From the human T2T-CHM13v2.0 reference genome, Homo sapiens, in assembly GCA_009914755.4 (NCBI GenBank), contig CP086569.2:29376001-29440000 (forward strand): DNA of 64,000 nucleotides. Reading direction: 5' to 3'. Each line of letters starts with the position of its first letter. Positions within the stretch are counted from its first letter, which is position 1. A program made the translations under genes and the position numbers. The notes beneath the pieces are model-generated. The model did no database searches. It was not told the DNA's origin and saw only the letters and a list, made by a program, of their open reading frames with translations. Positions 1 through 64,000 of the stretch are shown here, one piece after another.

Positions 1-3000
1 TTCGAGTGGAATGGAATCGAATATAATGGAGTCGAATGAAATGGAATTGAAAGGAATGGGATCGAATACAATGGAATATACTGGTATGTAACGTAATGTA
101 CTCGAATGTAATTGACTGGAATGGAATGTACATGAATGGAATGTAATCGAATGGAAAGTAATCCAATGGAATAGAATCTAATGCAATAAAATCGACTGAA
201 ATAGAATAGAATGTAATGGAATGGAGTGCAGTGCAATGGAATGGAATGGAATGCAATGCAATGGAATGGAATGTAATGGAATGGAATGGAATGGGATGGA
301 ATGGTAAGGAATGGATAGTAATGGACTGGAGTGAAATGGACTGGAAAGGAATGGACTCAAATTGAAAGGGCTCGAAAGGAACGGAGTCAAATGGAATGGT
401 CTGGAATGGAATGAACACGAATGTAATGCAATCCAATAGAATGGAATCGAATGGCATGGAATATAAAGAAATGGAATCGAAGAGAATGGAAACAAATGGA
501 ATGGAATTGAATGGAATGGAATTGAATGGAATGGGAAGGAATGGAGTGAAATTGTATGCAGTAGAAGAGAATAGAAAGGAATGCAAGCGAAAGGAAAGGA
601 ATGGATTGCAATGGAATGGAATTCATTGGAATGGAAGGGAATGTAGTGTAATGGACAGGCCTGGAATAAAGTGGAATGCTACGGTCTCGAATGGAATAAA
701 AATGTATGGAATGGAATGCAATGAAACGGAATCGAATGTCATAGAATGTAATGGAATGCAAAAAAATGGAATCCAAAATCATTGACTGGAAAGGCTGTGT
801 GTCGAAAGGAATTGAATCCAATGGAATGGAATCGAATGGAATGGAAGTGAATAGAATCGAACTAAATCGAATGGAATGGAATTGATAGGAACGGAATGGA
901 AAGGAATGCAATGATTTGGCATGGAATGGAATCGAATGGCATCGAATGGAATGGAATGGAATGCAATGGAATGGAATGTATTAGAATGTAATGAACATTA
1001 ATGGAATGTACTCGAATGGATTCGACTGGAATGGAATGTTCTCGATGTGAATGGACTCCAATGGAATGGATTCGAAAGGAATGGAATCGAACGGAATGGC
1101 ATCTAATGGAATGGAATTAAATGGAAATGAATCAAATTGAATAGCACGGAATTGAATTGAATGGAATCGAATGCAATGGAATCTAATGAAACGGAAAGGA
1201 AAGGAATGGAATGGAATGGAATGGGCTGGAATGGAATGGAATCGAAACGAATGGAATGGAATCGAACTGAAGAGACTGGAATGGAATGCACTGGAATGGA
1301 AGGGAGTGTAATAGAAGGTTCTCGAAAAAATTGGAATCGAATGGAATGGAATTGAATGGAACGGAATAGAGTCGAATGGAATTGAATGGAATGGAATGGA
1401 CTAGAGTGAAATGGAATCGAACCACAAGGAATGGACAGGAATAGAATGGTCTCGAATTGAAAGGAATCGTATGGAATGGCATCAAACGGAATGGAATGGA
1501 CAGCCACGGAATGGAATGCACTCGAATGCAATGGAGTCGAAACTAATGGACTGGAATAGAATGGACTCGACTGGTACGGACTCCAATGGAATGGAATCGA
1601 ATGGAAGGGAATTGAACGGAATGGACTCGAAGGGAAAAGACTGCAATGGAAAGATCTCGAATGGAATGGAAATTAATGGAATGGAATGGAATCGAATGAA
1701 ATGGAGTCAAAAGGAATGGAATCGAATGGCAAGAAATCGAATGTAATGGAATCACAAGGAATTGATGTGAAGGGAACGGAATGGAATGGAATCCAAAGGA
1801 ATGGAATAGAATGGAATGGAATCGAATGGAAAGCACTCGAATGGAAATCACTCGAATAGAATTCATTTTAATAAAATAGGATCAAATGTAATGGAATGGA
1901 ATGGAAAGGAATCGAAACGAAATTAATGGAGACAGATGGAATGGAATGGAACAGAGAGCAATGGTATAGAATGGAATGGAATCATCTGGAATGGAATTGA
2001 ATGGAATGGAATAATGTGAAATGGAATGGAATGGAATGGAATGCCCTTGAATTAAATGGACTGGAATGGAATGGACTCGAACAGAGTGGAATGGAAAGTG
2101 TTGAAATAGAATGGAATGGACTCCTTTGGAATGGTCTAGTATGCAATGCAATCGACTGGCAGGGAATCAAAAGGAATGTAATCGAATGGATTGGACTGGA
2201 ATGCAATGGACTCGAATAGATTGGAAACGGAATGCAAAGGAATGGAATGCAATAGTATGGAATGGAATGGAAAGGAATGGAGTGGAATAGACTAGAGTGG
2301 AATGGAATGGACTGGAAAGCAATGGACTGGAATGGAACTTTCTTGAATGGACTGGAATCAAACGGAATGGAATGCAATGCAATCAAATGGCATGGAATAA
2401 AATAGAATGAAAGAGAATCAAATGGAATTGAATTGAATGGAATCGAATGGATTGGAAAGGAATAGAATGGAATGGAATGGAATTGACTCAAATGGAATGG
2501 ACTAGAATGGAATGGATTCGAATGGAAGGCAAAGGAATGGAATCTATTGGAATGGACTGTAATGGAATGGAATGGAAGGGATTGGAATGGACTCGAATGG
2601 AATGGACTGCAATAGAAAGGATTCGAATGGAATGAAAAAGAATTGAATGGAATAGAACAGAATGGAATCAAATCGAATGAAATGGAATGGAATAGAAAGG
2701 AATGGAATGAAATGGAATGGAAAGGATTCGAATGGAATGCAATCGAATGGAATGCAGTCGAACGGAATGGAATCGAACGGAATGGAATAAAATGGAAGAA
2801 AACTGGCAAGAAATGGAATCGAAATGAATGGAGTGTTATGGGTCGGACTCAAAAGGAATTGAATGTAATAGAATGGAGTGGAGTGGACTCGAATATAATG
2901 GACTGGAATGGAATGAAATCACATGGAATGGGAACGAATGGAATGGAATGGAAATGAATGGAATCGAATGGAAAGGAATCGAATGGAAATCACTCGAATA

Positions 3001-5848
3001 GAATGCAATTTAATAAAATAGGATCAAATGTAATGGAATGGAATGGAAAGGAATCGAAACGAAAGGAATGGAGACAGATGCAATGGAATGGAACAGAGAG
3101 CAATGGTATAGAATGCAATGGAATCATCTGGAATGGAATTGAATGGAATGGAATAATATGAAATGGAATGGAATGGAATGGAATGCCCTTGAATTAAATG
3201 GACTGGAATGGAATGGACTCGAACAGAGTGGAATGAAAAGTGTTGAGATAGAATGGAATGGACTCTTTTGGAATGGTCTAGTATGCAATGCAATCGACTG
3301 GCAGGGAATCAAAAGGAATGTAATCGAATGGATTGGACTGGAATGCAATGGACTCGAATAGATTGGAAACGGAATGCAAAGGAATGGAATGGAATAGTAT
3401 GGAATGGAATGGAAAGGAATGGAGTGGAATAGACTAGAGTGGAATGGAATGGACTGGAAAACAATGGACTGGAATGGAACTTTCTTGAATGGACTGGAAT
3501 CAAACGGAATGGAATGCAATGCAATCAAATGGCATGGAATAAAATAGAATGAAAGAGAATCAAATGGAATTGAATCGAATGGAATCGAATGGATTGGAAA
3601 GGAATAGAATGGAATGGAATGGAATTGACTCAAATGGAATGGACTAGAATGGAATGGATTCGAATGGAAGGCAAAGGAATGGAATCTATTGGAATGGACT
3701 GTAATGGAATGGAATGGAAGGGATTGGAATGGACTCGAATGGAATGGACTGCAATAGAAAGGATTCGAATGGAATGAAAAAGAATTGAATGGAATAGAAC
3801 AGAATGGAATCAAATCGAATGAAATGGAATGGAATAGAAAGGAATGGAATGAAATGGAATGGAAAGGATTCGAATGGAATGCAATCGAATGGAATGCAAT
3901 CGAACGGAATGGAATCGAACGGAATGGAATAAAATGGAAGAAAACTGGCAAGAAATGGAATCGAAATGAATGGAGTGTTATGGAACGGACTCAAAAGGAA
4001 TTGAATGTAATAGAATGGAGTGGAGTGGACTCGAATATAATGGACTGGAATGGAATGAAATCACATGGAATGGGAACGAATGGAATGGAATGGAAAGGAA
4101 TGGAATCGAATGGAAAGGAATCGAATGGAAATCACTCGAATAGAATGCAATTTAATAAAATAGGATCAAATGTAATGGAATGGAATGGAAAGGAATCGAA
4201 ACGAAAGGAATGGAGACAGATGGAATGGAATGGAACAGAGAGCAATGGTATAGAATGGAATGGAATCATCAGGAATGGAATTGAATGGAATGGAATAATA
4301 TGAAATGGAATGGAATGGAATGGAATGCCCTTGAATTAAATGGACTGGAATGGAATGGACTCGAACAGAGTGGAATGAAAAGTGTTGAGATAGAATGGAA
4401 TGGACTCTTTTGGAATGGTCTAGTATGCAATGCAATCGACTGGCAGCGAATCAAAAGGAATGTAATCGAATGGATTGGACTGGAATGCAATGGACTCGAA
4501 TAGATTGGAAACGGAATGCAAAGGAATGGAATGGAATAGTATGGAATGGAATGGAAAGGAATGGAGTGGAATAGACTAGAGTGGAATGGAATGGACTGGA
4601 AAGCAATGGACTGGAATGGAACTTTCTTGAATGGACTGGAATCAAACGGAATGGAATGCAATGCAATCAAATGGCATGGAATAAAATAGAATGAAAGAGA
4701 ATCAAATGGAATTGAATCGAATGGAATCGAATGGATTGGAAAGGAATAGAATGGAATGGAATGGAATTGACTCAAATGGAATGGACTAGAATGGAATGGA
4801 TTCGAATGGAAGGCAAAGGAATGGAATCTATTGGAATGGACTGTAATGGAATGGAATGGAAGGGATTGGAATGGACTCGAATGGAATGGACTGCAATAGA
4901 AAGGATTCGAATGGAATGAAAAAGAATTGAATGGAATAGAACAGAATGGAATCAAATCGAATGAAATGGAATGGAATAGAAAGGAATGGAATGAAATGGA
5001 ATGGAAAGGATTCGAATGGAATGCAATCGAATGGAATGCAATCGAACGGAATGGAATCGAACGGAATGGAATAAAATGGAAGAAAACTGGCAAGAAATGG
5101 AATCGAAAGGAATGGAGTGTTATGGAACGGACTCAAAAGGAATTGAATGTAATAGAATGGAGTGGAGTGGACTCGAATATACTGGACTGGAATGGAATGA
5201 AATCACATGGAATGGGAACGAATGGAATGGAATGGAAAGGAATGGAATCGAATGGAAAGGAATCGAATGGAAGGGAATGAAATTGAATCAACAGGAATGG
5301 AAGGGAATTGAATAGACGGTAATGGAATGGACTCGAATAGAATGGACACGAATGCTCAAATTGAATGGACTCGAATGGAATGGAAACGAAAGGAATGTCA
5401 TCGAATGGAATTGAATCGATTGGAATGAAATCGCATGGAATGGAGTGGAATCCAATGGAATTGAATCGAAAGGAAAGGAAGCGAATGGACTGAAATGAAA
5501 TGGAATGGAATGGAATGGAAAGTAATGCAATGGAATAGAATGGAACGAAATTTCACGGAATGGAATCAAACTGAATGGAATCAAATCAATGGAATATAAT
5601 CAAATGGAATGGAAAGGAATTGAATGGAGTAGATGGGATTGGATGGGATTGGAATGAAATGTACTGGAAAAGACTCGAATTTTATGAAACGGAATGGAAT
5701 GAATTGGAACGGAATGGACTCGAATGGAATGGAATGTCATGGAATGGCATCAAATGGAATGGCATCAAATGGAATGGAATCGAATGCAATGGAATGCTAT
5801 GGAATGGAATGGAATGCATTGGAATGGAATGTCCTCTAATGGAATGGA
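1..5848. repeat. HOR unit 1, expanded variant of 5,848 bp containing 3 tandem copies of a 1,142 bp internal segment
   Basis: Phase is defined by the landmark ttcgagtggaatggaatcgaatataatgg at positions 1 and 5849. The internal landmark taataaaatagg recurs at 1869, 3011 and 4153 (spacing 1,142). Confidence 0.85.
1840..5266. repeat. Three-fold tandem amplification of a 1,142 bp intra-HOR segment. Copies are at ~1840-2981, 2982-4123 and 4124-5266.
   Basis: The recombination joint cgaatggaaa|tcactcgaatagaatgcaatttaataaaatagg recurs at ~2982 and ~4124. The normal continuation cgaatggaagggaatgaaattgaatcaacagg appears only after the third copy (~5266). The three copies differ by a few substitutions, for example gaattcatttta in copy 1 against gaatgcaattta in copies 2 and 3. 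Confidence 0.8.
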
Positions 5849-8800
5849 TTCGAGTGGAATGGAATCGAATATAATGGAGTCGAATGAAATGGAATTGAAA
5901 GGAATGGGATCGAATACAATGGAATATACTGGAATGTAACGTAATGAACTCGAATGTAATTGACTGGAATGGAATGTACATGAATGGAATGTAATCGAAT
6001 GGAAAGTAATCCAATGGAATAGAATCTAATGCAATAAAATCGACTCAAATAGAATAGAATGTAATGGAATGGAGTGCAGTGCAATGGAATGGAATGGAAT
6101 GGAATTCAATGCAATGGAATGTAATGGAATGGAATGGAATGGGATGGAATGGTATGGAATGGATAGTAATGGACTGGAGTGAAATGGACTGGAAAGGAAT
6201 GGACTCAAATTGAAAGGGCTCGAAAGGAATGGAGTCAAATGGAATGGTCTGGAATGGAATGAACACGAATGTAATGCAATCCAATAGAATGGAATCGAAT
6301 GGCATGGAATATAAAGAAATGGAATCGAAGAGAATGGAAACAAATGGAATGGAATTGAATGGAATGGAATTGAATGGAATGGGAAGGAATGGAGTGAAAT
6401 TGTATGCAGTAGAAGAGAATAGAATGGAATGCAAGCGAAAGGAAAGGAATGGATTTCAATGGAATGGAATTCATTGGAATGGAAGGGAATGTAGTGTAAT
6501 GGACAGGCCTGGAATAAAGTGGAATGCTACGGTCTCGAATGGAATAAAAATGTATGGAATGGAATGCAATGAAACGGAATCGAATGTCATAGAATGTAAT
6601 GGAATGCAAAAAAATGGAATCCAAAATCATTGACTGGAAAGGCTGTGTGTCGAAAGGAATTGACTCCAATGGAATGGAATCGAATGGAATGGAAGTGAAT
6701 AGAATCGAACTAAATCGAATGGAATGGAATTGATAGGAACGGAATGGAAAGGAATGCAATGATTTGGCATGGAATGGAATCGAATGGCATCGAATGGAAT
6801 GGAATGGAATGCAATGGAATGGAATGTATTAGAATGTAATGAACATTAATGGAATGTACTCGAATGGATTCGACTGGAATGGAATGTTCTAGAAGTGAAT
6901 GGACTCCAATGGAATGGATTCGAAAGGAATGGAATCGAACGGAATGACATCTAATGGAATGGAATTAAATGGAAATGAATCAAATTGAATAGCATGGAAT
7001 TGAATTGAATGGAATCGAATGCAATGGAATCTAATGAAACGGAAAGGAAAAGAATGGAATGGAATGGAATGGGCTGGAATGGAATGGAATCGAAACGAAT
7101 GGAATGGAATCGAACTGAAGAGACTGGAATGGAATGCACTGGAATGGAAGGGAGTGTAGTGGAAGGTTCTCGAAAAAAATGGAATCGAATGGAATGGAAT
7201 TGAATGGAACGGAATAGAGTCGAATGGAATTGAATGGAATGGAATGGACTAGAGTGAAATGGAATCGAACCACAAGGAATGGACTGGAATAGAATGGTCT
7301 CGAATTGAAAGGAATCGTATGGAATAGCATCAAACGGAATGGAATGGACAGCCACGGAATGGAATGCACTCGAATGCAATGGAGTCGAAACTAATGGACT
7401 GGAATAGAATGGACTCGACTGGTACGGACTCCAATGTAATGGAATCGAATGGAAGGGAATCGAACGGAATGGACTCGAAGGGAATAGACTGCAATGGAAA
7501 GGTCTCGAATGTAATGGAAATTAATGGAATGGAATGGAATCGAATGAAATGGAGTCAAAAGGAATGGAATCGAATGGCAAGAAATCGAATGGAATGGAAT
7601 CACAAGGAATTGATGTGAACGGAACGGAATGGAATGGAATCCAAAGGAATGGAATAGAATGGAATGGAATCGAATGGAAAGGACTCGAATGGAAATCACT
7701 CGAATAGAATGCAATTTAATAAAATAGGATCAAATGTAATGGAATGGAATGGAAAGGAATCGAAATGAAAGGAATGGAGACAGATGGAATGGAATGGAAC
7801 AGAGAGCAATGGTATAGAATGGAATGGAATCATCTGGAATGGAATTGAATGGAATGGAATAATATGAAATGGAATGGAATGGAATGGAATGCCCTTGAAT
7901 TAAATGGACTGGAATGGAATGGACTCGAACAGAGTGGAATGGAAAGTGTTGAAATAGAATGGAATGGACTCCTTTGGAATGGTCTAGTATGCAATGCAAT
8001 CGACTGGCAGGGAATCAAAAGGAATGTAATCGAATGGATTGGACTGGAATGCAATGGACTCGAATAGATTGGAAACGGAATGCAAAGGAATGGAATGGAA
8101 TAGTATGGAATGGAATGGAAAGGAATGGAGTGGAATAGACTAGAGTGGAATGGAATGGACTGGAAAGCAATGGACTGGAATGGAACTTTCTTGAATGGAC
8201 TGGAATCAAACGGAATGGAATGCAATGCAATCAAATGGCATGGAATAAAATAGAATGAAAGAGAATCAAATGGAATTGAATCGAATGGAATCGAATGGAT
8301 TGGAAAGGAATAGAATGGAATGGAATGGAATTGACTCAAATGGAATGGACTAGAATGGAATGGATTCGAATGGAAGGCAAAGGAATGGAATCTATTGGAA
8401 TGGACTGTAATGGAATGGAATGGAAGGGATTGGAATGGACTCGAATGGAATGGACTGCAATAGAAAGGATTCGAATGGAATGAAAAAGAATTGAATGGAA
8501 TAGAACAGAATGGAATCAAATCGAATGAAATGGAATGGAATAGAAAGGAATGGAATGAAATGGAATGGAAAGGATTCGAATGGAATGCAATCGAATGGAA
8601 TGGAATCGAACGGAATGGAATAAAATGGAAGAAAACTGGCAAGAAATGGAATCGAAATGAATGGAGTGTTATGGAACGGACTCAAAAGGAATTGAATGTA
8701 ATAGAATGGAGTGGAGTGGACTCGAATATACTGGACTGGAATGGAATGAAATCACATGGAATGGGAACGAATGGAATGGAATGGAAAGGAATGGAATCGA

Positions 8801-9397
8801 ATGGAAAGGAATCGAATGGAAGGGAATGAAATTGAATCAACAGGAATGGAAGGGAATAGAATAGACGGTAATGGAATGGACTCGAATAGAATGGACACGA
8901 ATGCTCAAATTGAATGGACTCGAATGGAATGGAAACGAAAGGAATGTCATCGAATGGAATTGAATCGATTGGAATGAAATCGCATAGAATGGAGTGGAAT
9001 CCAATGGAATTGAATCGAAAGGAAAGGAAGCGAATGGACTGAAATGAAATGGAATGGAATTGAATGGAAAGTAATGCAATGGAATAGAATGGAACGAAAT
9101 TTCACGGAATGGAATCAAACTGAATGGAATCAAATCAATGGAATCTAATCAAATGGAATGGAAAGGAATTGAATGGAGTAGATGGGATTGGATGGGATTG
9201 GAATGAAATGTACAGGAAGAGACTCGAATTTTATGAATCGGAATGGAATGAATTGGAACGGAATGGACTCGAATGGAATGGAATGTCATGGAATGGCATC
9301 AAATGGAATGGTATCAAATGGAATGGAATCGAATGCAATGGAATGCTATGGAATGGAATGGAATGCATTGGAATGGAATGTCCTCTAATGGAATGGA
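5849..9397. repeat. HOR unit 2, canonical 3,549 bp
   Basis: Landmark ttcgagtgg at 5849 and 9398. One copy of each diagnostic segment. Confidence 0.85.
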
Positions 9398-12300
9398 TTC
9401 GAGTGGAATGGAATCGAATATAATGGAGTCGAATGAAATGGAATTGAAAGGAATGGGATCGAATACAATGGAATATACTGGTATGTAACGTAATGTACTC
9501 GAATGTAATTGACTGGAATGGAATGTACATGAATGGAATGTAATCGAATGGAAAGTAATCCAATGGAATAGAATCTAATGCAATAAAATCGACTGAAATA
9601 GAATAGAATGTAATGGAATGGAGTGCAGTGCAATGGAATGGAATGGAATGCAATGCAATGGAATGGAATGTAATGGAATGGAATGGAATGGGATGGAATG
9701 GTAAGGAATGGATAGTAATGGACTGGAGTGAAATGGACTGGAAAGGAATGGACTCAAATTGAAAGGGCTCGAAAGGAACGGAGTCAAATGGAATGGTCTG
9801 GAATGGAATGAACACGAATGTAATGCAATCCAATAGAATGGAATCGAATGGCATGGAATATAAAGAAATGGAATCGAAGAGAACGGAAACAAATGGAATG
9901 GAATTGAATGGAATGGAATTGAATGGAATGGGAAGGAATGGAGTGAAATTGTATGCAGTAGAAGAGAATAGAAAGGAATGCAAGCGAAAGGAAAGGAATG
10001 GATTGCAATGGAATGGAATTCATTGGAATGGAAGGGAATGTAGTGTAATGGACAGGCCTGGAATAAAGTGGAATGCTACGGTCTCGAATGGAATAAAAAT
10101 GTATGGAATGGAATGCAATGAAACGGAATCGAATGTCATAGAATGTAATGGAATGCAAAAAAATGGAATCCAAAATCATTGACTGGAAAGGCCGTGTGTC
10201 GAAAGGAATTGAATCCAATGGAATGGAATCGAATGGAATGGAAGTGAATAGAATCGAACTAAATCGAATGGAATGGAATTGATAGGAACGGAATGGAAAG
10301 GAATGCAATGATTTGGCATGGAATGGAATCGAATGGCATCGAATGGAATGGAATGGAATGCAATGGAATGGAATGTATTAGAATGTAATGAACATTAATG
10401 GAATGTACTCGAACGGATTCGACTGGAATGGAATGTTCTCGATGTGAATGGACTCCAATGGAATGGATTCGAAAGGAATGGAATCGAACGGAATGGCATC
10501 TAATGGAATGGAATTAAATGGAAATGAATCAAATTGAATAGCACGGAATTGAATTGAATGGAATCGAATGCAATGGAATCTAATGAAACGGAAAGGAAAG
10601 GAATGGAATGGAATGGAATGGGCTGGAATGGAATGGAATCGAAACGAATGGAATGGAATCGAACTGAAGAGACTGGAATGGAATGCACTGGAATGGAAGG
10701 GAGTGTAATAGAAGGTTCTCGAAAAAATTGGAATCGAATGGAATGGAATTGAATGGAACGGAATAGAGTCGAATGGAATTGAATGGAATGGAATGGACTA
10801 GAGTGAAATGGAATCGAACCACAAGGAATGGACAGGAATAGAATGGTCTCGAATTGAAAGGAATCGTATGGAATGGCATCAAACGGAATGGAATGGACAG
10901 CCACGGAATTTAATGCACTCGAATGCAATGGAGTCGAAACTAATGGACTGGAATAGAATGGACTCGACTGGTACGGACTCCAATGGAATGGAATCGAATG
11001 GAAGGGAATTGAACGGAATGGACTCGAAGGGAAAAGACTGCAATGGAAAGATCTCGAATGGAATGGAAATTAATGGAATGGAATGGAATCGAATGAAATG
11101 GAGTCAAAAGGAATGGAATCGAATGGCAAGAAATCGAATGTAATGGAATCACAAGGAATTGATGTGAAGGGAACGGAATGGAATGGAATCCAAAGGAATG
11201 GAATAGAATGGAATGGAATCGAATGGAAAGCACTCGAATGGAAATCACTCGAATAGAATTCATTTTAACAAAATAGGATCAAATGTAATGAAATGGAATG
11301 GAAAGGAATCGAAACGAAAGTAATGGAGACAGATGGAATGGAATGGAACAGAGAGCAATGGTATAGAATGGAATGGAATCATCTGGAATGGAATTGAATG
11401 GAATGGAATAATGTGAAATGGAATGGAATGGAATGGAATGCCCTTGAATTAAATGGACTGGAATGGAATGGACTCGAACAGAGTGGAATGGAAAGTGTTG
11501 AAATAGAATGGAATGGACTCCTTTGGAATGGTCTAGTATGCAATGCAATCGACTGGCAGGGAATCAAAAGGAATGTAATAGAATGGATTGGACTGGAATG
11601 CAATGGACTCGAATAGATTGGAAACGGAATGCAAAGGAATGGAATGCAATAGTATGGAATGGAATGGAAAGGAATGGAGTGGAATAGACTAGAGTGGAAT
11701 GGAATGGACTGGAAAGCAATGGACTGGAATGGAACTTTCTTGAATGGACTGGAATCAAACGGAATGGAATGCAATGCAATCAAATGGCATGGAATAAAAT
11801 AGAATGAAAGAGAATCAAATGGAATTGAATTGAATGGAATCGAATGGATTGGAAAGGAATAGAATGGAATGGAATGGAATTGACTCAAATGGAATGGACT
11901 AGAATGGAATGGATTCGAATGGAAGGCAAAGGAATGGAATCTATTGGAATGGACTGTAATGGAATGGAATGGAAGGGATTGGAATGGACTCGAATGGAAT
12001 GGACTGCAATAGAAAGGATTCGAATGGAATGAAAAAGAATTGAATGGAATAGAACAGAATGGAATCAAATCGAATGAAATGGAATGGAATAGAAAGGAAT
12101 GGAATGAAATGGAATGGAAAGGATTCGAATGGAATGCAATCGAATGGAATGCAGTCGAACGGAATGGAATCGAACGGAATGGAATAAAATGGAAGAAAAC
12201 TGGCAAGAAATGGAATCGAAATGAATGGAGTGTTATGGGACGGACTCAAAAGGAATTGAATGTAATAGAATGGAGTGGAGTGGACTCGAATATAATGGAC

Positions 12301-54494: not shown

Positions 54495-57344
54495 TGGACT
54501 CAAATTGAAAGGGCTCGAAAGGAATGGAGTCAAATGGAATGGTCTGGAATGGAGTGAACACGAATGTAATGCAATCCAATAGAATGGAATCGAATGGCAT
54601 GGAATATAAAGAAATGGAATCGAAGAGAATGGAAACAAATGGAATGGAATTGAATGGAATGGAATTGAATGGAATGGGAACGAATGGAGTGAAATTGTAT
54701 GCAGTAGAAGAGAATAGAATGGAATGCAAGCGAAAGGAAAGGAATGGATTGGAATGGAATGGAATTCATTGGAATGGAAGGGAATGTAGTGTAATGGACA
54801 GGCCTGGAATAAAGTGGAATGCTACGGTCTCGAATTGAATAAAAATGTATGGAATGGAATGCAATGAAACGGAATCGAATGTCATAGAATGTAATGGAAT
54901 GCAAAAAATTGGAATCCAAAATCATTGACTGGAAAGGCTGGGTGTCGAAAGGAATTGACTCCAATGGAATGGAATCGAATGGAATGGAAGTGAATAGAAT
55001 CGAACTAAATCGAATGGAATGGAATTGATAGGAACGGAATGGAAAGGAATGCAATGATTTGGCATGGAGTGGAATCGAATGGCATCGAATGGAATGGAAT
55101 GGAATGCAATGGAATGGAATGTATTAGAATGTAATGAACATTAATGGAATGTACTCGAATGGATTCGACTGGCATGGAATGTTCTGGAAATGAATGGAAT
55201 CCAATGGAATGGATTCAAAAGGAATGGAATCGTACGGAATGGAATCTAATGGAATGGAATTAAATGGAAATGAATCAAATTGAATAGCACGGAATTGAAT
55301 TGAATGGAATCGAATGCAATGGAATCTAATGAAACGGAAAGGAAAGGAATGGAATGGAATGGAATGGGCTGGAATGGAAAGGAATCGAAACGAATGGAAT
55401 GGAATCGAACTGAAGAGACTGGAATGGAATGCACTGGAATGGAAGGGAGTGTAATGGAAGGTTCTCGACAAAAATGGAATCGAATGGAATGGAATTGAAT
55501 GGAACGGAATAGAGTCGAATGGAATTGAATGGAATGGAATGGACTAGAGTGAAATGGAATCGAACCACAAGGAATGGACAGGAATAGAATGGTCTCGAAT
55601 TGAATGGAATCGTATGGAATGGCATCAAACGGAATGGAATGGACAGCCACGGAATGGAATGCACTCGAATGCAATGGAGTCGAAACTAATGGACTGGAAT
55701 AGAATGGACTCGACTGGTACGGACTCCAATGGAATGGAATCGAATGGAAGGGAATCGAATGGAATGGACTCGAAGGGAAAAGACTGCAATGGAAAGGTCT
55801 CGAATGGAATGGAAATTAATGGAATGGAATGGAATCGAATGAAATGGAGTCAAAAGGAATGGAATCGAATGGCAAGAAATCGAATGTAATGGAATCGCAA
55901 GGAATTGATGTGAACGGAACGGAATGGAATGGAATCCAAAGGAATGGAATAGAATGGAATGGAATCGAATGGAAAGGACTCGAATGGAAATCACTAGAAT
56001 AGAAAGCAATTTAATAAAATAGGATCAAATGTAATGGAATGGAATGGAAAGGAATCGAAACGAAAGGAATGGAGACAGATGGAATGGAATGGAACAGAGA
56101 GCAATGGTATAGAATGGAATGGAATCATCTGGAATGGAATTGAATGGAATGGAATAATATGAAATGGAATGGAATGGAATGGAATGCCTTTGAATTAAAT
56201 GGACTGGAATGGAATGGACTCGAACAGAGTGGAATGGAAAGTGATGAGATAGAATGGAATGGACTCGTTTGGAATGGTGTAGTATGCAATGTAATCGACT
56301 GGCAGGGAATCAAAAGGAATGTAATCGAATGGATTGTACTGGAATGCAATGGACTCGAATAGATTGGAAACGGAATGCAAAGGAATGGAATGGAATAGTA
56401 TGGAATGGAATGGAAAGAAATGGAGTGGAATAGACTAGAGTGGAATGGAATGGACTGGAAAGCAATGGACTGGAATGGAACTTTCTTGAATGGACTGGAA
56501 TCAAACGGAATGGAATGCAATGCAATCAAATGGCATGGAATAAAATAGAATGAAAGAGAATCAAATGGAATTGAATCGAATGGAATCGAATGGATTGGAA
56601 AGGAATAGAATGGAATGGTATGGAATTGACTCAAATGGAATGGACTAGAATGGAATGGATTCGAATGGAAGGCAAAGGAATGGAATCTATTGGAATGGAC
56701 TGTAATGGAATGGAATGGAAGGGATTGGAATGGACTCGAATGGAATGGACTGCAATAGAAAGGATTCGAATGGAATGAAAAAGAATTGAATGGAATAGAA
56801 CACAATGGAATCAAATCGAATGAAATGGAATGGAATAGAAAGGAATGGAATGAAATGGAATGGAAAGGATTCGAATGGAATGCAATCGAATGGAATGGAA
56901 TCGAACGGAATGGAATAAAATGGAAGAAAACTGGCAAGAAATGGAATCGAAATGAATGGAGTGTTATGGAACGGACTCAAAAGGAATTGAATGTAATAGA
57001 ATGGAGTGGAGTGGACTCGAATATAATGGACTGGAATGGAATGAAATCACATGGAATGGGAACGAATGGAATGGAATGGAAAGGAATGGAATCGAATGGA
57101 AAGGAATCGAATGGAAGGGAATGAAATTGAATCAACAGGAATGGAAGGGAATAGAATAGACGGTAATGGAATGGACTCGAATAGAATGGACACGAATGCT
57201 CAAATTGAATGGACTCGAATGGAATGGAAACGAAAGGAATGTCATCGAATGGAATTGAATCGATTGGAATGAAATCGCATAGAATGGAGTGGAATCAAAT
57301 GGAATTGAATCGAAAGCAAAGGAAGCGAATGGACTGAAATGAAA
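54495..57344. repeat. HOR deletion-variant unit 15 (2,850 bp), delimited by identical deletion junctions
   Basis: The same junction sequence occurs at ~54495 and ~57345. The unit lacks the segment running from gaatggaaagtaatgcaatgg through the unit boundary to ggaatggatagtaatggactggagtgaaatggactggaaaggaatgg. Confidence 0.8.
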
Positions 57345-60174
57345 TGGACTCAAATTGAAAGGGCTCGAAAGGAATGGAGTCAAATGGAATGGTCTGGAAT
57401 GGAGTGAACACGAATGTAATGCAATCCAATAGAATGGAATCGAATGGCATGGAATATAAAGAAATGGAATCGAAGAGAATGGAAACAAATGGAATGGAAT
57501 TGAATGGAATGGAATTGAATGGAATGGGAACGAATGGAGTGAAATTGTATGCAGTAGAAGAGAATAGAATGGAATGCAAGCGAAAGGAAAGGAATGGATT
57601 GGAATGGAATGGAATTCATTGGAATGGAAGGGAATGTAGTGTAATGGACAGGCCTGGAATAAAGTGGAATGCTACGGTCTCGAATGGAATAAAAATGTAT
57701 GGAATGGAATGCAATGAAACGGAATCGAATGTCATAGAATGTAATGGAATGCAAAAAATTGGAATCCAAAATCATTGACTGGAAAGGCTGGGTGTCGAAA
57801 GGAATTGACTCCAATGGAATGGAATCGAATGGAATGGAAGTGAATAGAATCCAACTAAATCGAATGGAATGGAATTGATAGGAACGGAATGGAAAGGAAT
57901 GCAATGATTTGGCATGGAGTGGAATCGAATGGCATCGAATGGAATGGAATGGAATGCAATGGAATGGAATGTATTAGAATGTAATGAACATTAATGGAAT
58001 GTACTCGAATGGATTCGACTGGCATGGAATGTTCTGGAAGTGAATGGAATCCAATGGAATGGATTCAAAAGGAATGGAATCGTACGGAAAGGAATCTAAT
58101 GGAATGGAATTAAATGGAAATGAATCAAATTGAATAGCACGGAATTGAATTGAATGGAATCGAATGCAATGGAATCTAATGAAACGGAAAGGAAAGGAAT
58201 GGAATGGAATGGGCTGGAATGGAAAGGAATCGAAACGAATGGAATGGAATCGAACTGAAGAGACTGGAATGGAATGCACTGGAATGGAAGGGAGTGTAAT
58301 GGAAGGTTCTCGACAAAAATGGAATCGAATGGAATGGAATTGAATGGAACGGAATAGAGTGGAATGGAATTGAATGGAATGGAATGGACTAGAGTGAAAT
58401 GGAATCGAACCACAAGGAATGGACAGGAATAGAATGGTCTCGAATTGAATGGAATCGTATGGAATGGCATCAAACGGAATGGAATGGACAGTCACGGAAT
58501 GGAATGCATTCGAATGCAATGGAGTCGAAACTAATGGACTGGAATAGAATGGACTCGACTGGTACGAACTCCAATGGAATGGAATCGAATGGAAGGGAAT
58601 CGAACGGAATGGACTCGAAGGGAAAAGACTGCAATGGAAAGGTCTCGAATGGAATGGAAATTAATGGAATGGAATGGAATCGAATGAAATGGAGTCAAAA
58701 GGAATGGAATCGAATGGCAAGAAATCGAATGTAATGGAATCGCAAGGAATTGATGTGAACGGAACGGAATGGAATGGAATCCAAAGGAATGGAATCGAAT
58801 GGAATGGAATCGAATGGAAAGGACTCGAATGGAAATCACTCGAATAGAATGCAATTTAATAAAATAGGATCAAATGTAATGGAATGGAATGGAAAGGAAT
58901 CGAAACGAAAGGAATGGAGACAGATGGAATGGAATGGAACAGAGAGCAATGGTATAGAATGGAATGGAATCATCTGGAATGGAATTGAATGGAATGGAAA
59001 AATATGAAATGGAATGGAATGGAATGGAATGTCCTTGAATTAAATGGACTGGCATGGAATGGACTCGAACAGAGTGGAATGGAAAGTGTTGAAATAGAAT
59101 GTAATGGACTCCTTTGGAATGGTCTAGTATGCAATGCAATCGACTGGCAGGGAATCAAAAGGAATGTAATCGAATGGATTGGACTGGAATGCAATGGACT
59201 CGAATAGATTGGAAACGGAAAGCAAAGGAATGGAATGGAATAGTATGGAATGGAATGGAAAGGAATGGAGTGGAATAGACTAGAGTGGAATGGAATGGAC
59301 TCGAAAGCAATGGACTGTAATGGAACTTTCTTGAATGGACTGGAATCAAACGGAATGGAATGCAATGCAATCAAATGGCATGGAATAAAATAGAATGAAA
59401 GAGAATCAAATGGAATTGAATCGAATGGAATCGAATGGATTGGAAAGGAATAGAATGGAATGGAATGGAATTGACTCAAATGGAATGGACTAGAATGGAA
59501 TGGATTCGAATGGAAGGCAAAGGAATGGAATCTATTGGAATGGACTGTAATGGAATGGAATGGAAGGGATTGGAATGGACTCGAATGGAATAGACTGCAA
59601 TAGAAAGGATTCGAATGGAATGAAAAAGAATTGAATGGAATAGAACAGAATGGAATCAAATCGAATGAAATGGAATGGAATAGAAAGGAATGGAATGAAA
59701 TGGAATGGAAAGGATTCGAATGGAATGCAATCGAATGGAATGGAATCGAACGGAATGGAATAAAATGGAAGAAAACTGGCAAGAAATGGAATCGAAATGA
59801 ATGGAGTGTTATGGAACGGACTCAAAAGGAATTGAATGTAATAGAATGGAGTGGAGTGGACTCGAATATAATGGACTGGAATGGAATGAAATCACATGGA
59901 ATGGGAACGAATGGAATGGAATGGAAAGGAAAGGAATCGAATGGAAGGGAATGAAATTGAATCAACAGGAATGGAAGGGAATAGAATAGACGGTAATGGA
60001 ATGGACTCGAATAGAATGGACACGAATGCACAAATTGAATGGACTCGAATGGAATGGAAACGAAAGGAATGTCATCGAATGGAATTGAATCGATTGGAAT
60101 GAAATCGCATAGAATGGAGTGGAGTCAAATGGAATTGAAACGAAAGCAAAGGAAGCGAATGGACTGAAATGAAA
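57345..60174. repeat. HOR deletion-variant unit 16 (2,830 bp)
   Basis: The same junction occurs at ~57345 and ~60175. Confidence 0.8.
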
Positions 60175-63100
60175 TGGACTCAAATTGAAAGGGCTCGAAA
60201 GGAATGGAGTCAAATGGAATGGTCTGGAATGGAATGAACACGAATGTAATGCAATCCAATAGAATGGAATCGAATGGCATGGAATATAAAGAAATGGAAT
60301 CGAAGAGAATGGAAACAAATGGAATGGAATTGAATGGAATGGAATTGAATGGAATGGGAACGAATGGAGTGAAATTGTATGCAGTAGAAGAGAATAGAAT
60401 GGAATACAAGCGAAAGGAAAGGAATGGATTGGAATGGAATGGAATTCATTGGAATGGAAGGGAATGTAGTGTAATGGACAGGCCTGGAATAAAGTGGAAT
60501 GCTACGGTCTCGAATGGAATAAAAATGTATGGAATGGAATGCAATGAAACGGAATCGAATGTCATAGAATGTAATGGAATGCAACAAAATGGAATCCAAA
60601 ATCATTGACTGGAAAGGCTGGGTGTCGAAAGGAATTGACTCCAATGGAATGGAATCGAATGGAATGGAAGTGAATAGAATCGAACTAAATCGAATGGAAT
60701 GGAATTGATAGGAACGGAATGGAAAGGAATGCAATGATTTGGCATGGAATGGAATCGAATGGCATCGAATGGAATGGAATGGAATGCAATGGAATGGAAT
60801 GTATTAGAATGTAATGAACATTAATGGAATGTACTCGAATGGATTCGACTGGCATGGAATGTTCTGGAAGTGAATGGAATCCAATGGAATGGATTCAAAA
60901 GGAATGGAATCGTACGGAATGGAATCTAATGGAATGGAATTAAATGGAAATGAATCAAATTGAATAGCACGGAATTGAATTGAATGGAATCGAATGCAAT
61001 GGAATCTAATGAAACGGAAAGGAAAGGAATGGAATGGAATGGAATGGGCTGGAATGGAAAGGAATCGAAACGAATGGAATGGAATCGAACTGAAGAGACT
61101 GGAATGGAATGCACTGGAATGGAAGGGAGTGTAATGGAAGGTTCTCGACAAAAATGGAATCGAATGGAATGGAATTGAATGGAACGGAATAGAGTCGAAT
61201 GGAATTGAATGGAATGGAATGGACTAGAGTGAAATGGAATCGAACCACAAGGAATGGACAGGAATAGAATGGTCTCGAATTGAATGGAATCGTATGGAAT
61301 GGCATCAAACGGAATGGAATGGACAGCCACGGAATGGAATGCACTCGAATGCAATGGAGTCGAAACTAATGGACTGGAATAGAATGGACTCGACTGGTAG
61401 GGACTCCAATGGAATGGAATCGAATGGAAGGGAATCGAATGGAATGGACTCGAAGGGAAAAGACTGCAATGGAAAGGTATCGAATGGAATGGAAATTAAT
61501 GGAATGGAATGGAATCGAATGAAATGGAGTCAAAAGGAATGGAATCGAATGGCAAGAAATCGAATGTAATGGAATCGCAAGGAATTGATGTGAACGGAAC
61601 GGAATGGAATGGAATCCAAAGGAATGGAATAGAATGGAATGGAATCGAATGGAAAGGACTCGAATGGAAATCACTCGAATAGAAAGCAATTTAATAAAAT
61701 AGGATCAAATGTAATGGAATGGAATGGAAAGGAATCGAAACGAAAGGAATGGAGACAGATGGAATGGAATGGAACAGAGAGCAATGGTATAGAATGGAAT
61801 GGAATCATCTGGAATGGAATTGAATGGAATGGAATAATATGAAATGGAATGGAATGGAATGGAATGCCTTTGAATTAAATGGACTGGAATGGAATGGACT
61901 CGAACAGAGTGGAATGGAAAGTGATGAGATAGAATGGAATGGACTCGTTTGGAATGGTCTAGTATGCAATGCAATCGACTGGCAGGGAATCAAAAGGAAT
62001 GTAATCGAATGGATTGTACTGGAATCCAATGGACTCGAATAGATTGGAAACGGAATGCAAAGGAATGGAATGGAATAGTATGGAATGGAATGGAAAGAAA
62101 TGGAGTGGAATAGACTAGAGTGGAATGGAATGGACTCGAAAGCAATGGACTGGAATGGAACTTTCTTGAATGGACTGGAATCAAACGGAATGGAATGCAA
62201 TGCAATCAAATGGCATGGAATAAAATAGAATGAAAGAGAATCAAATGGAATTGAATCGAATGGAATCGAATGGATTGGAAAGGAATAGAATGGAATGGAA
62301 TGGAATTGACTCAAATGGAATGGACTAGAATGGAATGGATTCGAATGGAAGGCAAAGGAATGGAATCTATTGGAATGGACTGTAATGGAATGGAATGGAA
62401 GGGATTGGAATGGACTCGAATGGAATGGACTGCAATAGAAAGGATTCGAATGGAATGAAAAAGAATTGAATGGAATAGAACACAATGGAATCAAATCGAA
62501 TGAAATGGAATGGAATAGAAAGGAATGGAATGAAATGGAATGGAAAGGATTCGAATGGAATGCAATCGAATGGAATGGAATCGAACGGAATGGAATAAAA
62601 TGGAAGAAAACTGGCAAGAAATGGAATCGAAATGAATGCAGTGTTATGGAACGGACTCAAAAGGAATTGAATGTAATAGAATGGAGTGGAGTGGACTCGA
62701 ATATAATGGACTGGAAGGGAATGAAATCACATGGAATGGGAACGAATGGAATGGAATGGAAAGGAATGGAATCGAATGGAAAGGAATCGAATGGAAGGGA
62801 ATGAAATTGAATCAACAGGAATGGAAGGGAATAGAATAGACGGTAATGGAATGGACTCGAATAGAATGGACACGAATGCTCAAATTGAATGGACTCGAAT
62901 GGAATGGAAACGAAAGGAATGTCATCGAATGGAATTGAATCGATTGGAATGAAATCGCATAGAATGGAGTGGAATCAAATGGATTTGAATCGAAAGGAAA
63001 GGAAGCGAATGGACTGAAATGAAATGGAATGGAATTGAATGGAAAGTAATGCAATGGAATAGAATGGAACGAAATTTCACGGAATGGAATCAAACTGAAT

Positions 63101-63372
63101 GGAATCAAATCAATGGAATCAAATCAAATGGAATGGAAAGGAATTGAATGGAGTAGATTGGATTGGATGGGATTGGAATGAAATGTACTGGAAAGGACTC
63201 GAATTTCATGAAACGGAATGGAATGAATTGGAACGGAAGGGACTCGAATGGAATGGAATGTCATGGAATGGCATCAAATGGAATGACATCAAATGGAATG
63301 GAATCGAATACAATGGAATGTTATGGAATGGAATGGAATGCATTGGAATGGAATGTCCTCTAATGGAATGGA
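60175..63372. repeat. HOR unit 17. Its head is missing because of the third deletion. Its tail is canonical, with the ttcgagtgg landmark restored at 63373.
   Basis: Junction at ~60175. The canonical tail segment, including the stop-free frames at 62812-63398, is present. Confidence 0.8.
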
Positions 63373-64000
63373 TTCGAGTGGAATGGAATCGAATATAATG
63401 GAGTCGAATGAAATGGAATTGAAAGGAATGGGATCGAATAGAATGGAATATACTGGAATGTAATGTAATGAACTGGAATGTAATTGACTGGAATGGAATG
63501 TAGATGAATGGAATGTAATCGAATGGAAAGTAATCCAATGGAATAGAATCTAATGCAATAAAACCGACTCAGATAGAGTAGAATGTAATGGAATGGAGTG
63601 CAGTGCAATGGAATGGAATGGAATTGAATGGAATGGAATGGAATGGAATGGAATGGAATGGAATGGGATGGAATGGTATGGAATGGATAGTAATGGACTG
63701 GAGTGAAATGGACTGGAAAGGAATGGACTCAAATTGAAAGGGCTCGAAAGGAATGGAGTCAAATGGAATGGTCTGGAATGGAATGAACACGAATGTAATG
63801 CAATCCAATAGAATGGAATCGAATGGCATGGAATATAAAGAAATGGAATCGAAGAGAATGGAAACAAATGGAATGGAATTGAATGGAATGGAATTGAATG
63901 GAATGGGAACGAATGGAGTGAAATTGTATGCAGTAGAAGGGAATAGAATGGAATGCAAGCGAAAGGAAAGGAATGGATTGGAATGGAATGGAATTCATTG
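63373..64000. repeat. HOR unit 18, partial, runs to the window edge
   Basis: Landmark ttcgagtgg at 63373. Content matches the first ~630 bp of the canonical units. Confidence 0.8.

What the first reader, a model, noticed from the sequence alone, without database searches (positions are those of the whole stretch)
1..64000. Window is a pure HSat3 (GGAAT)n array with a ~3.55 kb HOR and one HaeIII site per unit, which fits DYZ1 of Yq12
Seen directly: a 5 bp GGAAT monomer, a HOR period of 3,549 bp, exactly one GGCC per canonical unit (in gacaggcctgg), and one degenerate HSat3 decamer relic (attcgagtgg, compare A[C/T]TCGGGTTG) per unit. From established knowledge, the classical human Y long-arm heterochromatin family DYZ1 is a TTCCA/GGAAT-derived satellite defined by a ~3.4-3.56 kb HaeIII ladder. 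A HaeIII digest of this window would give that ladder, plus 5.85 kb and 2.84 kb variant bands. The assignment to DYZ1 rather than another HSat3 HOR (9q12, acrocentrics, chr1) is inference.
Basis: partly seen in the sequence, partly recalled or inferred. Interest (0 to 1): 0.5.

Follow-up and report, generated by a model that had tools for sequence, protein, structure and literature searches.

The report
Human Y-chromosome DYZ1 satellite array

Summary
The window is one uninterrupted, single-orientation GGAAT-based satellite. It is organised as about 19 head-to-tail copies of a ~3.55 kb higher-order unit that are 97-99.7% identical to each other.

Four tests support DYZ1/HSat3A6:
- A published 400-nt piece of the DYZ1 type clone X06228 aligns once per unit at 96.4-98.75%. 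Out of register it reaches only 74-79%.
- A published X06228 27-mer and Y-specific primers match at the expected spacing.
- Of Altemose's 14 subfamily marker 24-mers, only the HSat3A6 one is present (22 exact hits).
- GC is 38.7% and there is 1 CpG per 34.7 bp, which equals the published DYZ1 figures.

Human-contaminant contigs in "bacterial" assemblies collapse to a 3,569-bp unit, the published modal DYZ1 HaeIII fragment. They are 97.9-99.7% identical to the window's units.

The HaeIII digest has more odd fragments than stated: 135, 1,719, 2,399, 5,713 and 6,389 bp. The "decamer relic" ATTCGAGTGG is a one-base variant of the common ATTCGAATGG, read in the wrong orientation.

The Yq12 location itself is inferred, because the window holds no DYZ2 and no flank.

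Verdict: already known, low interest.

The parts
1..64000 (+). Uninterrupted DYZ1 / HSat3A6 satellite array with the G-rich (GGAAT) strand on +. It holds about 19 higher-order units.
   Evidence: GC is 38.7% with 1 CpG per 34.7 bp.
1..657 (+). Tail of a unit (unit positions 2893-3549).
   Evidence: 98.8% identity.
658..6505 (+). 5,848-bp variant unit. Unit segment ~1124-2316 is triplicated with a 1,142-bp period (copies 1781-2922, 2923-4064, 4065-5206).
   Evidence: The junction lies in ~30 bp of pentamer homology.
6506..10054 (+). Canonical 3,549-bp unit.
10055..15902 (+). Second 5,848-bp variant unit, 99.76% identical to the first, with an extra HaeIII site at 10190. Together with the next unit it forms a duplicated 9,397-bp block (658-10054 vs 10055-19452, 99.53%).
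15903..26549 (+). Three canonical units (3,550, 3,549 and 3,548 bp), 99.2-99.7% identical to each other. This is a locally homogenised block.
26550..44293 (+). Five full-length units with length variants of 3,504, 3,564, 3,584, 3,524 and 3,568 bp. All multi-base gaps are multiples of 5 bp; the only others are isolated 1-bp gaps. The EcoRI fragment 30015-33578 is exactly 3,564 bp, the length of clone X06228.
44294..46012 (+). 1,719-bp deletion unit (unit 1-1421 joined to 3159-3549).
46013..48411 (+). 2,399-bp deletion unit (unit 1-381 joined to 1516-3549).
48412..51960 (+). Canonical 3,549-bp unit. The HaeIII site that should follow it at 51961 is lost (TGCC).
51961..60480 (+). Three tandem 2.83-2.85 kb deletion units (unit 1-2548 joined to 3227-3549), 98.8-99.1% identical to each other.
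   Evidence: The junction 30-mer is at 54483, 57333 and 60163.
60481..64000 (+). Canonical unit cut by the window end (unit 1-3520).
33608..34007 (+). Best match (98.75%) to the published 400-nt fragment of DYZ1 clone X06228. The equivalent match occurs once in every unit.
37615..37641 (-). Exact match to X06228 positions 3089-3115 (ATTCCGTACGATTCCATTCCTTTTGAA). Also exact at 55214 and 60894.
33994..34006 (+). Heat-shock-element-like trimer GAATGTTCTGGAA, the HSE framed in the published DYZ1 fragment. There are 43 nGAAnnTTCnnGAAn matches in the window, at three positions of the unit.

Best explanation
The window is a piece of human DYZ1 (subfamily HSat3A6), most probably from one of the DYZ1 blocks of Yq12.

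What it is. It is non-coding constitutive-heterochromatin satellite. A degenerate GGAAT pentamer carries a 15-bp sub-period. About 710 pentamers form a ~3.55 kb higher-order unit, and that unit is repeated head to tail.

How it evolves (partly shown, partly inferred). The array changes by out-of-register homologous exchange and slippage within and between units, followed by local amplification. This yields four visible patterns:
- length variants that differ by multiples of 5 bp;
- a 1,142-bp internal triplication;
- deletion derivatives that are themselves amplified;
- a duplicated two-unit block.

What it does (from the literature, not testable here). It forms methylated heterochromatin. It offers thousands of GGAATG (TEAD-type) sites and a few heat-shock elements per unit. 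Through these, HSF1 can nucleate nuclear stress bodies on the Y and drive GGAAU-strand SATIII transcription after heat shock.
For: Shown here:
- Whole-window tiling by one unit at 95-100%. Units are 97.1-99.7% identical pairwise.
- The X06228 fragment matches at 96.4-98.75% once per unit, against 74-79% out of register.
- The X06228 27-mer is exact in three units and WYR6 in twelve, 151 bp apart as in X06228 coordinates 2965-3115. The Penin reverse primer is exact in nine units; the forward primer has one mismatch both in the published X06228 fragment and in 17 of the 18 units that carry its site (two mismatches at 51955). The pair gives ~167 bp in both.
- Mapping X06228 coordinates onto the window puts its last base (3564) inside the EcoRI site at 37163-37168. 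One EcoRI fragment is exactly 3,564 bp.
- The HSat3A6 marker 24-mer is exact 22 times, and the 13 other subfamily markers have no hit.
- GC is 38.7% with 1 CpG per 34.7 bp, against 38% and 1 per 35 bp published for DYZ1.
- The contaminant contigs L006 and L001 collapse to circular units of 3,569 and 3,574 bp, each with one GGCC. These units are 97.9-99.7% identical to every window unit. 3,569 bp is the most abundant DYZ1 HaeIII fragment in 6 of 7 assembled Y chromosomes.
- Mechanism: all multi-base gaps between units are 5, 10, 15, 20, 25 or 30 bp; the only others are isolated 1-bp gaps. Breakpoints lie in short shared pentamer runs. The 5.85 kb units are 99.76% identical to each other, while their internal 1,142-bp copies are 97.7-99.5% identical, so the triplication came before the block duplication.

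From the literature:
- DYZ1 is a Y-specific HSat3 subfamily with ~3.6 kb units that evolves by unequal exchange.
- HSF1 binds Yq12 SATIII at HSEs.
- TEAD binds GGAATG in HSat3. The window holds 2,804 GGAATG.
Against: - No human genome assembly could be searched, so chromosome and position are not directly shown.
- The window has no DYZ2 block and no unique flank.
- Only 400 + 27 nt of the 3,564-nt type clone could be compared directly.
- The modal unit here is 3,549 bp, not the genome-wide modal 3,569 bp.
- In the 3,549-bp block (about 6.5-30 kb) the marker 24-mer and some primers carry one mismatch. This is a local variant domain.
- Recurrence of the HSE-like sites across units follows from homogenisation and is not evidence of selection.
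Confidence: 0.95

Rival explanations
1. It is another HSat3 higher-order array. Candidates are D15Z1/HSat3A5 on chromosome 15 (published period 1.8/3.6 kb), HSat3B5 of 9q12, or an acrocentric HSat3A array.
For: All share the GGAAT pentamer. D15Z1 has a published 1,800/3,600-bp unit (Altemose Table S1), so a ~3.6 kb period alone is not diagnostic.
Against: - The marker 24-mers of HSat3A1-A5 and B1-B5 and of HSat2 have no hit at 0 or 1 mismatch.
- There are no KpnI sites and no 1.8 kb lag.
- The TCGGGTTG/CAACCCGA decamer core of the HSat3B clade is absent.
- Generic HSat3 from contaminant contigs is only 70-74% identical to the unit.
- The X06228 fragment matches at 96-99% in register.
Confidence: 0.01
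2. It is DYZ1-family sequence located outside the main Yq12 blocks. Candidates are the DYZ1-derived 2.7 kb array of the DYZ18 subregion or a small autosomal HSat3A6 patch (Altemose's model predicted ~94 kb on chromosome 7).
For: - Hallast et al. describe a 2.7 kbp array whose unit is 77% DYZ1-like at 97% identity.
- The window contains three 2.83-2.85 kb units and several rearranged units.
- Altemose's supplement mentions a possible chromosome 7 signal.
Against: - The 2.85 kb units are colinear with DYZ1 over their whole length (unit 1-2548 plus 3227-3549, at least 97.5%). There is no foreign 23% segment.
- They sit among 14 full-length units.
- The T2T-Y paper calls the subfamily Y-specific.
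- Over 20 Mb of DYZ1 lies in Yq12, so the prior strongly favours Yq12.
Confidence: 0.04
3. It is HSat3 from a non-human great ape, or the structural variants are assembly artefacts.
For: (AATGG)n is present on the Y chromosomes of other apes. Long satellite arrays are prone to misassembly.
Against: - The window is 96-99.7% identical to human-derived sequences: X06228, a HuRef-derived marker k-mer, and human contaminants in unrelated assemblies. This is within the spread among the window's own units.
- Each variant unit type recurs with its own private substitutions, which collapse artefacts would not produce.
Confidence: 0.01

Closest known systems
DYZ1 (HSat3A6), type clone X06228 (Nakahori et al. 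1986), as assembled in T2T-Y and 43 further Y chromosomes
   Same: - Pentamer base and a ~3.55 kb unit.
- One HaeIII and one EcoRI site per unit.
- 96-99% identity to the available clone fragment.
- Marker k-mer, GC and CpG density all agree.
- Units are more than 97% identical with local homogenisation.
   Different: - The local modal length is 3,549 bp rather than 3,564 or 3,569 bp.
- The window carries a cluster of structural variants (5,848, 2,830-2,850, 1,719 and 2,399 bp). I could not find these described in the papers read, but they are of the kind expected in this array.
HSat3B5, the 9q12 satellite III that is the classical HSF1 / nuclear stress body target
   Same: GGAAT pentamer satellite, heterochromatic, with HSE-like sites and GGAATG motifs.
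   Different: - 9q12-type units carry the A[C/T]TCGGGTTG decamer (seen in L038 and L015), and this window has none.
- Its marker k-mer is absent.
- Non-DYZ1 HSat3 in general (contigs L016 and L037, subfamily not determined) is only ~70-74% identical to the unit; identity to a pure HSat3B5 sequence was not measured.
D15Z1 (HSat3A5) of chromosome 15
   Same: HSat3A clade with a published 1.8/3.6 kb higher-order period.
   Different: No KpnI sites, no 1.8 kb period, and its marker k-mer is absent.
2.7 kbp DYZ18/DYZ1 chimeric array at the Yq11/Yq12 border (Hallast et al.)
   Same: Shortened DYZ1-derived unit, tandemly amplified.
   Different: The window's 2.85 kb units are pure DYZ1 with a single internal deletion. 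They have no DYZ18-like quarter.

Membership tests
DYZ1 / HSat3A6 | Tandem array derived from the pentamer GGAAT/ATTCC (CATTC). | tested here: met
   4,189 GGAAT, all on one strand. 73% of bases lie in GGAAT with at most 1 mismatch. TRF periods are multiples of 5.
DYZ1 / HSat3A6 | Higher-order unit of about 3.5-3.6 kb (3,564-bp clone; 3,569-bp modal HaeIII fragment). | tested here: met
   The modal lag is 3,549 bp. Full-length units are 3,504-3,584 bp, and one EcoRI fragment is exactly 3,564 bp.
DYZ1 / HSat3A6 | One HaeIII site (and one EcoRI site) per unit, giving the male-specific 3.4-3.6 kb band. | tested here: met
   There is one GGCC in every full-length unit.
DYZ1 / HSat3A6 | High in-register sequence identity to the type clone X06228. 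| tested here: met
   A 400-nt fragment matches at 96.4-98.75% in all 18 units, against at most 79% out of register. The 27-mer 3089-3115 is exact 3 times. The remaining ~3.1 kb of X06228 was not available.
DYZ1 / HSat3A6 | Carries HSat3A6-specific 24-mers and none from other subfamilies (Altemose 2014). | tested here: met
   The top HSat3A6 marker is exact 22 times, and the 13 other top markers have no hit at 0 or 1 mismatch.
DYZ1 / HSat3A6 | About 38% GC and about 1 CpG per 35 bp. | tested here: met
   38.66% GC and 1 CpG per 34.7 bp, compared.
DYZ1 / HSat3A6 | Male-specific, located in Yq12, in blocks alternating with DYZ2 (HSat1B). | not testable with these tools
   No human assembly can be searched, and the window contains no DYZ2 or unique flank. 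The location is inferred from family membership and from the literature.
HSat3B clade (e.g. 9q12 HSat3B5) | Interspersed decamer A[C/T]TCGGGTTG on the ATTCC strand (CAACCCGA[A/G]T on the GGAAT strand). | tested here: not met
   CAACCCGA and TCGGGTTG have 0 hits at 0 or 1 mismatch. The decamer oligonucleotide is confined to the HSat3B clade. It is seen on the ATTCC strand in L038 and L015.
D15Z1 / HSat3A5 | 1.8 kb (3.6 kb) KpnI periodicity and HSat3A5-specific k-mers. | tested here: not met
   No KpnI site, no 1.8 kb lag, and the marker is absent even at 2 mismatches.
2.7 kbp DYZ18/DYZ1 chimeric array | Unit of ~2.7 kb, of which ~23% is DYZ18-like (86% identity) and 77% is DYZ1-like. | tested here: not met
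   The 2,830-2,850-bp units align to DYZ1 over their full length in two colinear pieces at 97.5% or more. No DYZ18 sequence was available for a direct comparison.

The most novel reading that the evidence does not exclude
The window may capture locally amplified DYZ1 sub-variants that have not been individually catalogued:
- a 3,549-bp domain;
- a 5,848-bp unit with a triplicated 1,142-bp segment, inside a duplicated 9.4 kb block;
- a run of 2.85 kb deletion units.

These could serve as block-specific or Y-lineage-specific markers of Yq12 structure. The exact junction 30-mer of the 2.85 kb deletion was absent from metagenome contigs, although 33 stretches of those contigs carried canonical DYZ1. 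This is consistent with a rare or private variant. It is weak evidence, because short contigs rarely span such junctions.
Probability: 0.3. Interest if true: 0.15.

Novelty: already known. Interest (0 to 1): 0.08.

Why it matters
It matters little beyond correct annotation. DYZ1 has been known since the 1970s-80s and has been fully assembled in many Y chromosomes. The window illustrates three known points:
- Satellite arrays evolve by out-of-register exchange in pentamer phase, followed by local amplification.
- The classical HaeIII ladder hides structural variants.
- This very abundant human repeat contaminates microbial assemblies.

If the source is a metagenome or a non-human sample, the practical message is that this is human male DNA.

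Tried and rejected
- Literature search for the classic DYZ1 PCR primers that I recalled from memory (TCCACTTTATTCCAGGCCTGTCC / TTGAATGGAATGGGAACGAATGG) found no paper holding them. They match the window and give 154-bp products in 18 units. That point rests on memory only and is not used as evidence.
- The Nakahori 1986 paper (PMC311781) is not held, so the full X06228 sequence could not be aligned.
- Altemose Dataset S2, the full list of subfamily-specific 24-mers, is stored truncated within HSat2A1. Only the 14 top markers of Table 1 could be used.
- Exact junction scans found nothing. The 2.85 kb deletion junction had 0 hits in metagenome contigs. The 1,142-bp duplication junction had 0 hits in viral contigs.
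- Rfam at gathering thresholds gave 0 matches.
- There are 23 ORFs of at least 200 aa, all on the ATTCC strand at the same unit positions. They follow mechanically from a stop-poor pentamer repeat, so coding was rejected without further search.
- The canonical unit has no internal sub-repeat. All off-diagonal self-alignments are ~71%.
- The 'decamer relic' reading was rejected.
- One BLAST run timed out and was repeated with stricter settings. One paper look-up failed on a formatting rule.
Full report
**1. The observation**

The window has a strongly skewed composition (A 26,001, G 19,359, T 13,256, C 5,384). It holds 4,189 GGAAT on the + strand and no ATTCC, so the whole 64 kb is in one orientation. 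Tandem Repeats Finder covers 2-63,994 with periods of 15, 20, 25 and 45. Exact GGAAT covers 33% of bases, and GGAAT with at most one mismatch covers 73%. No 200-bp window falls below 45%. The array is therefore degenerate but uninterrupted.

The nearest-repeat lag of 24-mers peaks at 3,549 bp. Secondary lags are 1,142, 2,850, 5,848, 3,564, 3,569, 3,504 and 3,584 bp.

A canonical unit (19453-23001) tiles the entire window at 95-100% identity. Starting each unit at its HaeIII site (GGCC), the map is:

| Coordinates | Length (bp) | Note |
|---|---|---|
| 1-657 | 657 | tail of a unit |
| 658-6505 | 5,848 | variant unit |
| 6506-10054 | 3,549 | canonical |
| 10055-15902 | 5,848 | variant unit |
| 15903-19452 | 3,550 | canonical |
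| 19453-23001 | 3,549 | canonical |
| 23002-26549 | 3,548 | canonical |
| 26550-30053 | 3,504 | length variant |
| 30054-33617 | 3,564 | length variant |
| 33618-37201 | 3,584 | length variant |
| 37202-40725 | 3,524 | length variant |
| 40726-44293 | 3,568 | length variant |
| 44294-46012 | 1,719 | deletion unit |
| 46013-48411 | 2,399 | deletion unit |
| 48412-51960 | 3,549 | canonical |
| 51961-54800 | 2,840 | deletion unit |
| 54801-57650 | 2,850 | deletion unit |
| 57651-60480 | 2,830 | deletion unit |
| 60481-64000 | 3,520 | cut by the window end |

GGCC occurs 18 times, 17 of them in GACAGGCCTGG. Every full-length unit has exactly one. One site was gained at 10190 (GGCT>GGCC) and one was lost at 51961 (GGCC>TGCC).

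The virtual HaeIII digest gives 5848, 3549, 135, 5713, 3550, 3549, 3548, 3504, 3564, 3584, 3524, 3568, 1719, 2399, 6389, 2850 and 2830 bp. The list of non-ladder fragments was incomplete.

**2. Is it DYZ1?**

A ~3.6 kb period is not diagnostic by itself, because D15Z1 (HSat3A5) has a published 1.8/3.6 kb unit. I therefore looked for published DYZ1 sequence.

*Match to the type clone.*
- Penin et al. 2021 (PMC7889540, Fig. S4) print a stretch of the type clone X06228 (Nakahori 1986), of which 400 nt are held. It aligns once per unit, at the HaeIII site, in all 18 units that contain that region. Identity is 96.4-98.75%. The best out-of-register matches of the same fragment are 74-79% over at most 280 nt.
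- Their Y-specific reverse primer is exact in 9 units. Their forward primer has one mismatch both in the published fragment and in 17 of the 18 units that carry its site (two mismatches at 51955). The pair spans ~167 bp in both.
- PMC3565251 gives the X06228 27-mer 3089-3115 and primer WYR6. The 27-mer is exact in 3 units and within 2 mismatches in 16. WYR6 is exact in 12. They lie 151 bp apart, matching X06228 coordinates 2965-3115.
- Projecting X06228 coordinates onto the window puts base 3564 inside the EcoRI site at 37163-37168. There is one EcoRI site per canonical unit, and the fragment 30015-33578 is exactly 3,564 bp.

*Subfamily markers.* Altemose et al. 2014 (PMC4022460, Table 1) list the commonest subfamily-specific 24-mer for 14 HSat2/3 subfamilies. 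Only the HSat3A6 marker is found, with 22 exact hits and 38 at up to 1 mismatch. The other 13 have no hit at 0 or 1 mismatch. The same paper equates HSat3A6 with DYZ1.

*Composition.* GC is 38.66% and there is 1 CpG per 34.7 bp. Hallast et al. report 38% and 1 per 35 bp for DYZ1.

**3. Related sequences elsewhere**

A 32-mer across the HaeIII site occurs in six "bacterial" genome contigs, L001-L006. It also occurs in 33 stretches of metagenome contigs. The T2T-Y paper had already reported Y-derived HSat3 contamination of bacterial assemblies.

L001-L006 are 98.6-99.5% identical to the window. L006 and L001 have terminal overlaps of 35 and 63 bp, so they are circularly collapsed units of 3,569 and 3,574 bp, each with one GGCC. 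3,569 bp is exactly the most abundant DYZ1 HaeIII fragment in 6 of 7 complete Yq12 assemblies.

The two collapsed units are 99.92% identical to each other and 97.9-99.7% identical to each full-length window unit.

Metagenome contigs made of other HSat3 align to the DYZ1 unit at only 70-74% (L016, L037). Intermediate values belong to assembler chimeras or noisy long-read contigs.

**4. The "decamer relic"**

The classical satellite III decamer A[C/T]TCGGGTTG is written on the ATTCC strand. This is visible directly in L038 and L015, where TCGGGTTG sits among ATTCC repeats. On the window's GGAAT strand it would read CAACCCGA[A/G]T.

Neither CAACCCGA nor TCGGGTTG occurs at 0 or 1 mismatch. Altemose's supplement states that the decamer-containing oligonucleotide is confined to the HSat3B clade and is absent from HSat3A, which includes the Y families.

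ATTCGAGTGG is one of 520 A.TCGA.TGG decamers in the window. AATCGAATGG occurs 275 times and ATTCGAATGG 62 times. It differs from ATTCGAATGG by one base. It is a useful once-per-unit landmark at unit position ~2892, but it is not a relic of the decamer.

**5. Anatomy and how the array evolves**

*No internal sub-repeat.* Off-diagonal self-alignments of the canonical unit are all ~71%. The 3.55 kb unit is therefore a true higher-order unit.

*A 15-bp sub-period.* This lies under the pentamer:
- Self-identity is 0.686 at lag 15, against 0.640 at lag 5 and 0.638 at lag 10.
- CpG spacing peaks at 15, 30 and 45 bp.
- The TRF consensus is TCGAATGGAATGGAA.

*Indels.* All multi-base gaps among full-length units are 5, 10, 15, 20, 25 or 30 bp; the only others are isolated 1-bp gaps.

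*Structural variants.* All have breakpoints inside short runs shared by the two parental positions:
- a triplication of unit segment ~1124-2316 with a 1,142-bp period;
- a deletion of 2549-3226, giving the 2.85 kb units;
- a deletion of 1422-3158, giving the 1,719-bp unit;
- a deletion of 382-1515, giving the 2,399-bp unit.

*Order of events.* The two 5.85 kb units are 99.76% identical, while their internal 1,142-bp copies are 97.7-99.5% identical. The block 658-10054 is 99.53% identical to 10055-19452. The triplication therefore preceded duplication of a 9,397-bp two-unit block. The three 2.85 kb units are 98.8-99.1% identical to each other.

*Two domains.* Units at 6.5-26.5 kb form a tight 3,549-bp family that is 99.0-99.7% identical. 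It has private variants: HSE GAATGTTCTAGAA, and one mismatch in the marker and in some primers. Units from about 30 kb onward are closer to the collapsed consensus, reaching 99.66%.

These patterns are what unequal or out-of-register exchange with local homogenisation predicts. That is the mechanism the T2T-Y and Hallast papers infer for Yq12. The exchange mechanism itself is inferred from the patterns, not observed.

**6. Function**

No Rfam family matches. The 23 long ORFs all lie on the ATTCC strand at recurring unit positions and are a by-product of the repeat.

The window holds 2,804 GGAATG (TEAD core) motifs. It also holds 43 nGAAnnTTCnnGAAn trimers, against 1.2 expected from shuffles. 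These trimers occupy only three positions of the unit, so they amount to three independent sites copied by amplification. One is the HSE framed in the published DYZ1 fragment.

From the literature:
- HSF1 binds Yq12 SATIII after heat shock, forms nuclear stress bodies on the Y and recruits SRSF1.
- TEAD1 binds HSat3 arrays.
- DYZ1 is methylated heterochromatin.

None of this can be tested on sequence alone.

**7. Verdict**

Family membership (DYZ1/HSat3A6, human) is established on every feature that could be tested. The Yq12 location is a strong inference from the literature, but it is not shown here because there is no DYZ2, no flank and no searchable human assembly.

The finding is correct and ordinary. 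It is already known and of low interest. The only mildly new content is the specific set of local structural variants.

Noticed in passing
window 1-64000: A 15-bp sub-period lies under the pentamer. Self-identity is 0.686 at lag 15, against 0.640 at lag 5 and 0.638 at lag 10. CpG-to-CpG spacing peaks at 15, 30 and 45 bp. The TRF consensus is TCGAATGGAATGGAA. Many unit-length differences are 15 or 30 bp.
   Followed up: partly
L001-L006 (genome contigs): Six 'bacterial' assemblies contain human DYZ1 at 98.6-99.5% identity to the window. They are Actinomadura cremea JCM 3308, Streptosporangium violaceochromogenes JCM 3281, Streptomyces kurssanovii JCM 4388, Streptomyces sp. NPDC050549, Senimuribacter DSM 106208 and a Polyangiaceae MAG. 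This is human male contamination. L006 and L001 are circularly collapsed units of 3,569 and 3,574 bp.
   Followed up: yes
L007-L039 (metagenome contigs), e.g. L038:1-5356, L015:2645-4658: 33 stretches of metagenome contigs carry the DYZ1 HaeIII-site 32-mer. Several are assembler chimeras that join DYZ1 to HSat3B-type satellite carrying the classical TCGGGTTG decamer, or to unrelated microbial sequence. Three long contigs (BNJT01001888.1, BNJU01004413.1, BNJU01001848.1; 52-55 kb) carry the 32-mer. The held parts of BNJT01001888.1 (L010, L011) are ~97% identical to the window, with sites about 3.54-3.56 kb apart. The held DYZ1-like parts of the two BNJU contigs range from ~90% (L027, L033) to ~97% (L019).
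   Followed up: partly
window ~6,500-30,000 versus ~30,000-64,000: The window holds two locally homogenised variant domains. The first is a 3,549-bp family with HSE variant GAATGTTCTAGAA and a one-base variant of the HSat3A6 marker 24-mer. The second lies closer to the genome-wide consensus, with GAATGTTCTGGAA and the exact marker.
   Followed up: partly
window 10190 and 51961: Single-base gain (GGCT>GGCC) and loss (GGCC>TGCC) of HaeIII sites create the 135 + 5,713 bp and the 6,389 bp fragments.
   Followed up: yes
window 26550-30053 and 37202-40725: These two non-adjacent units, 10,652 bp apart, share 98.86% identity and the same 30-bp deletions. That is more than either shares with its neighbours. 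It hints at an older three-unit duplication or at gene conversion.
   Followed up: no
PMC7889540 versus window: The paper gives 154 bp for its Yq12 ChIP amplicon. In its own printed X06228 fragment and in the window the two primers span ~167 bp.
   Followed up: yes
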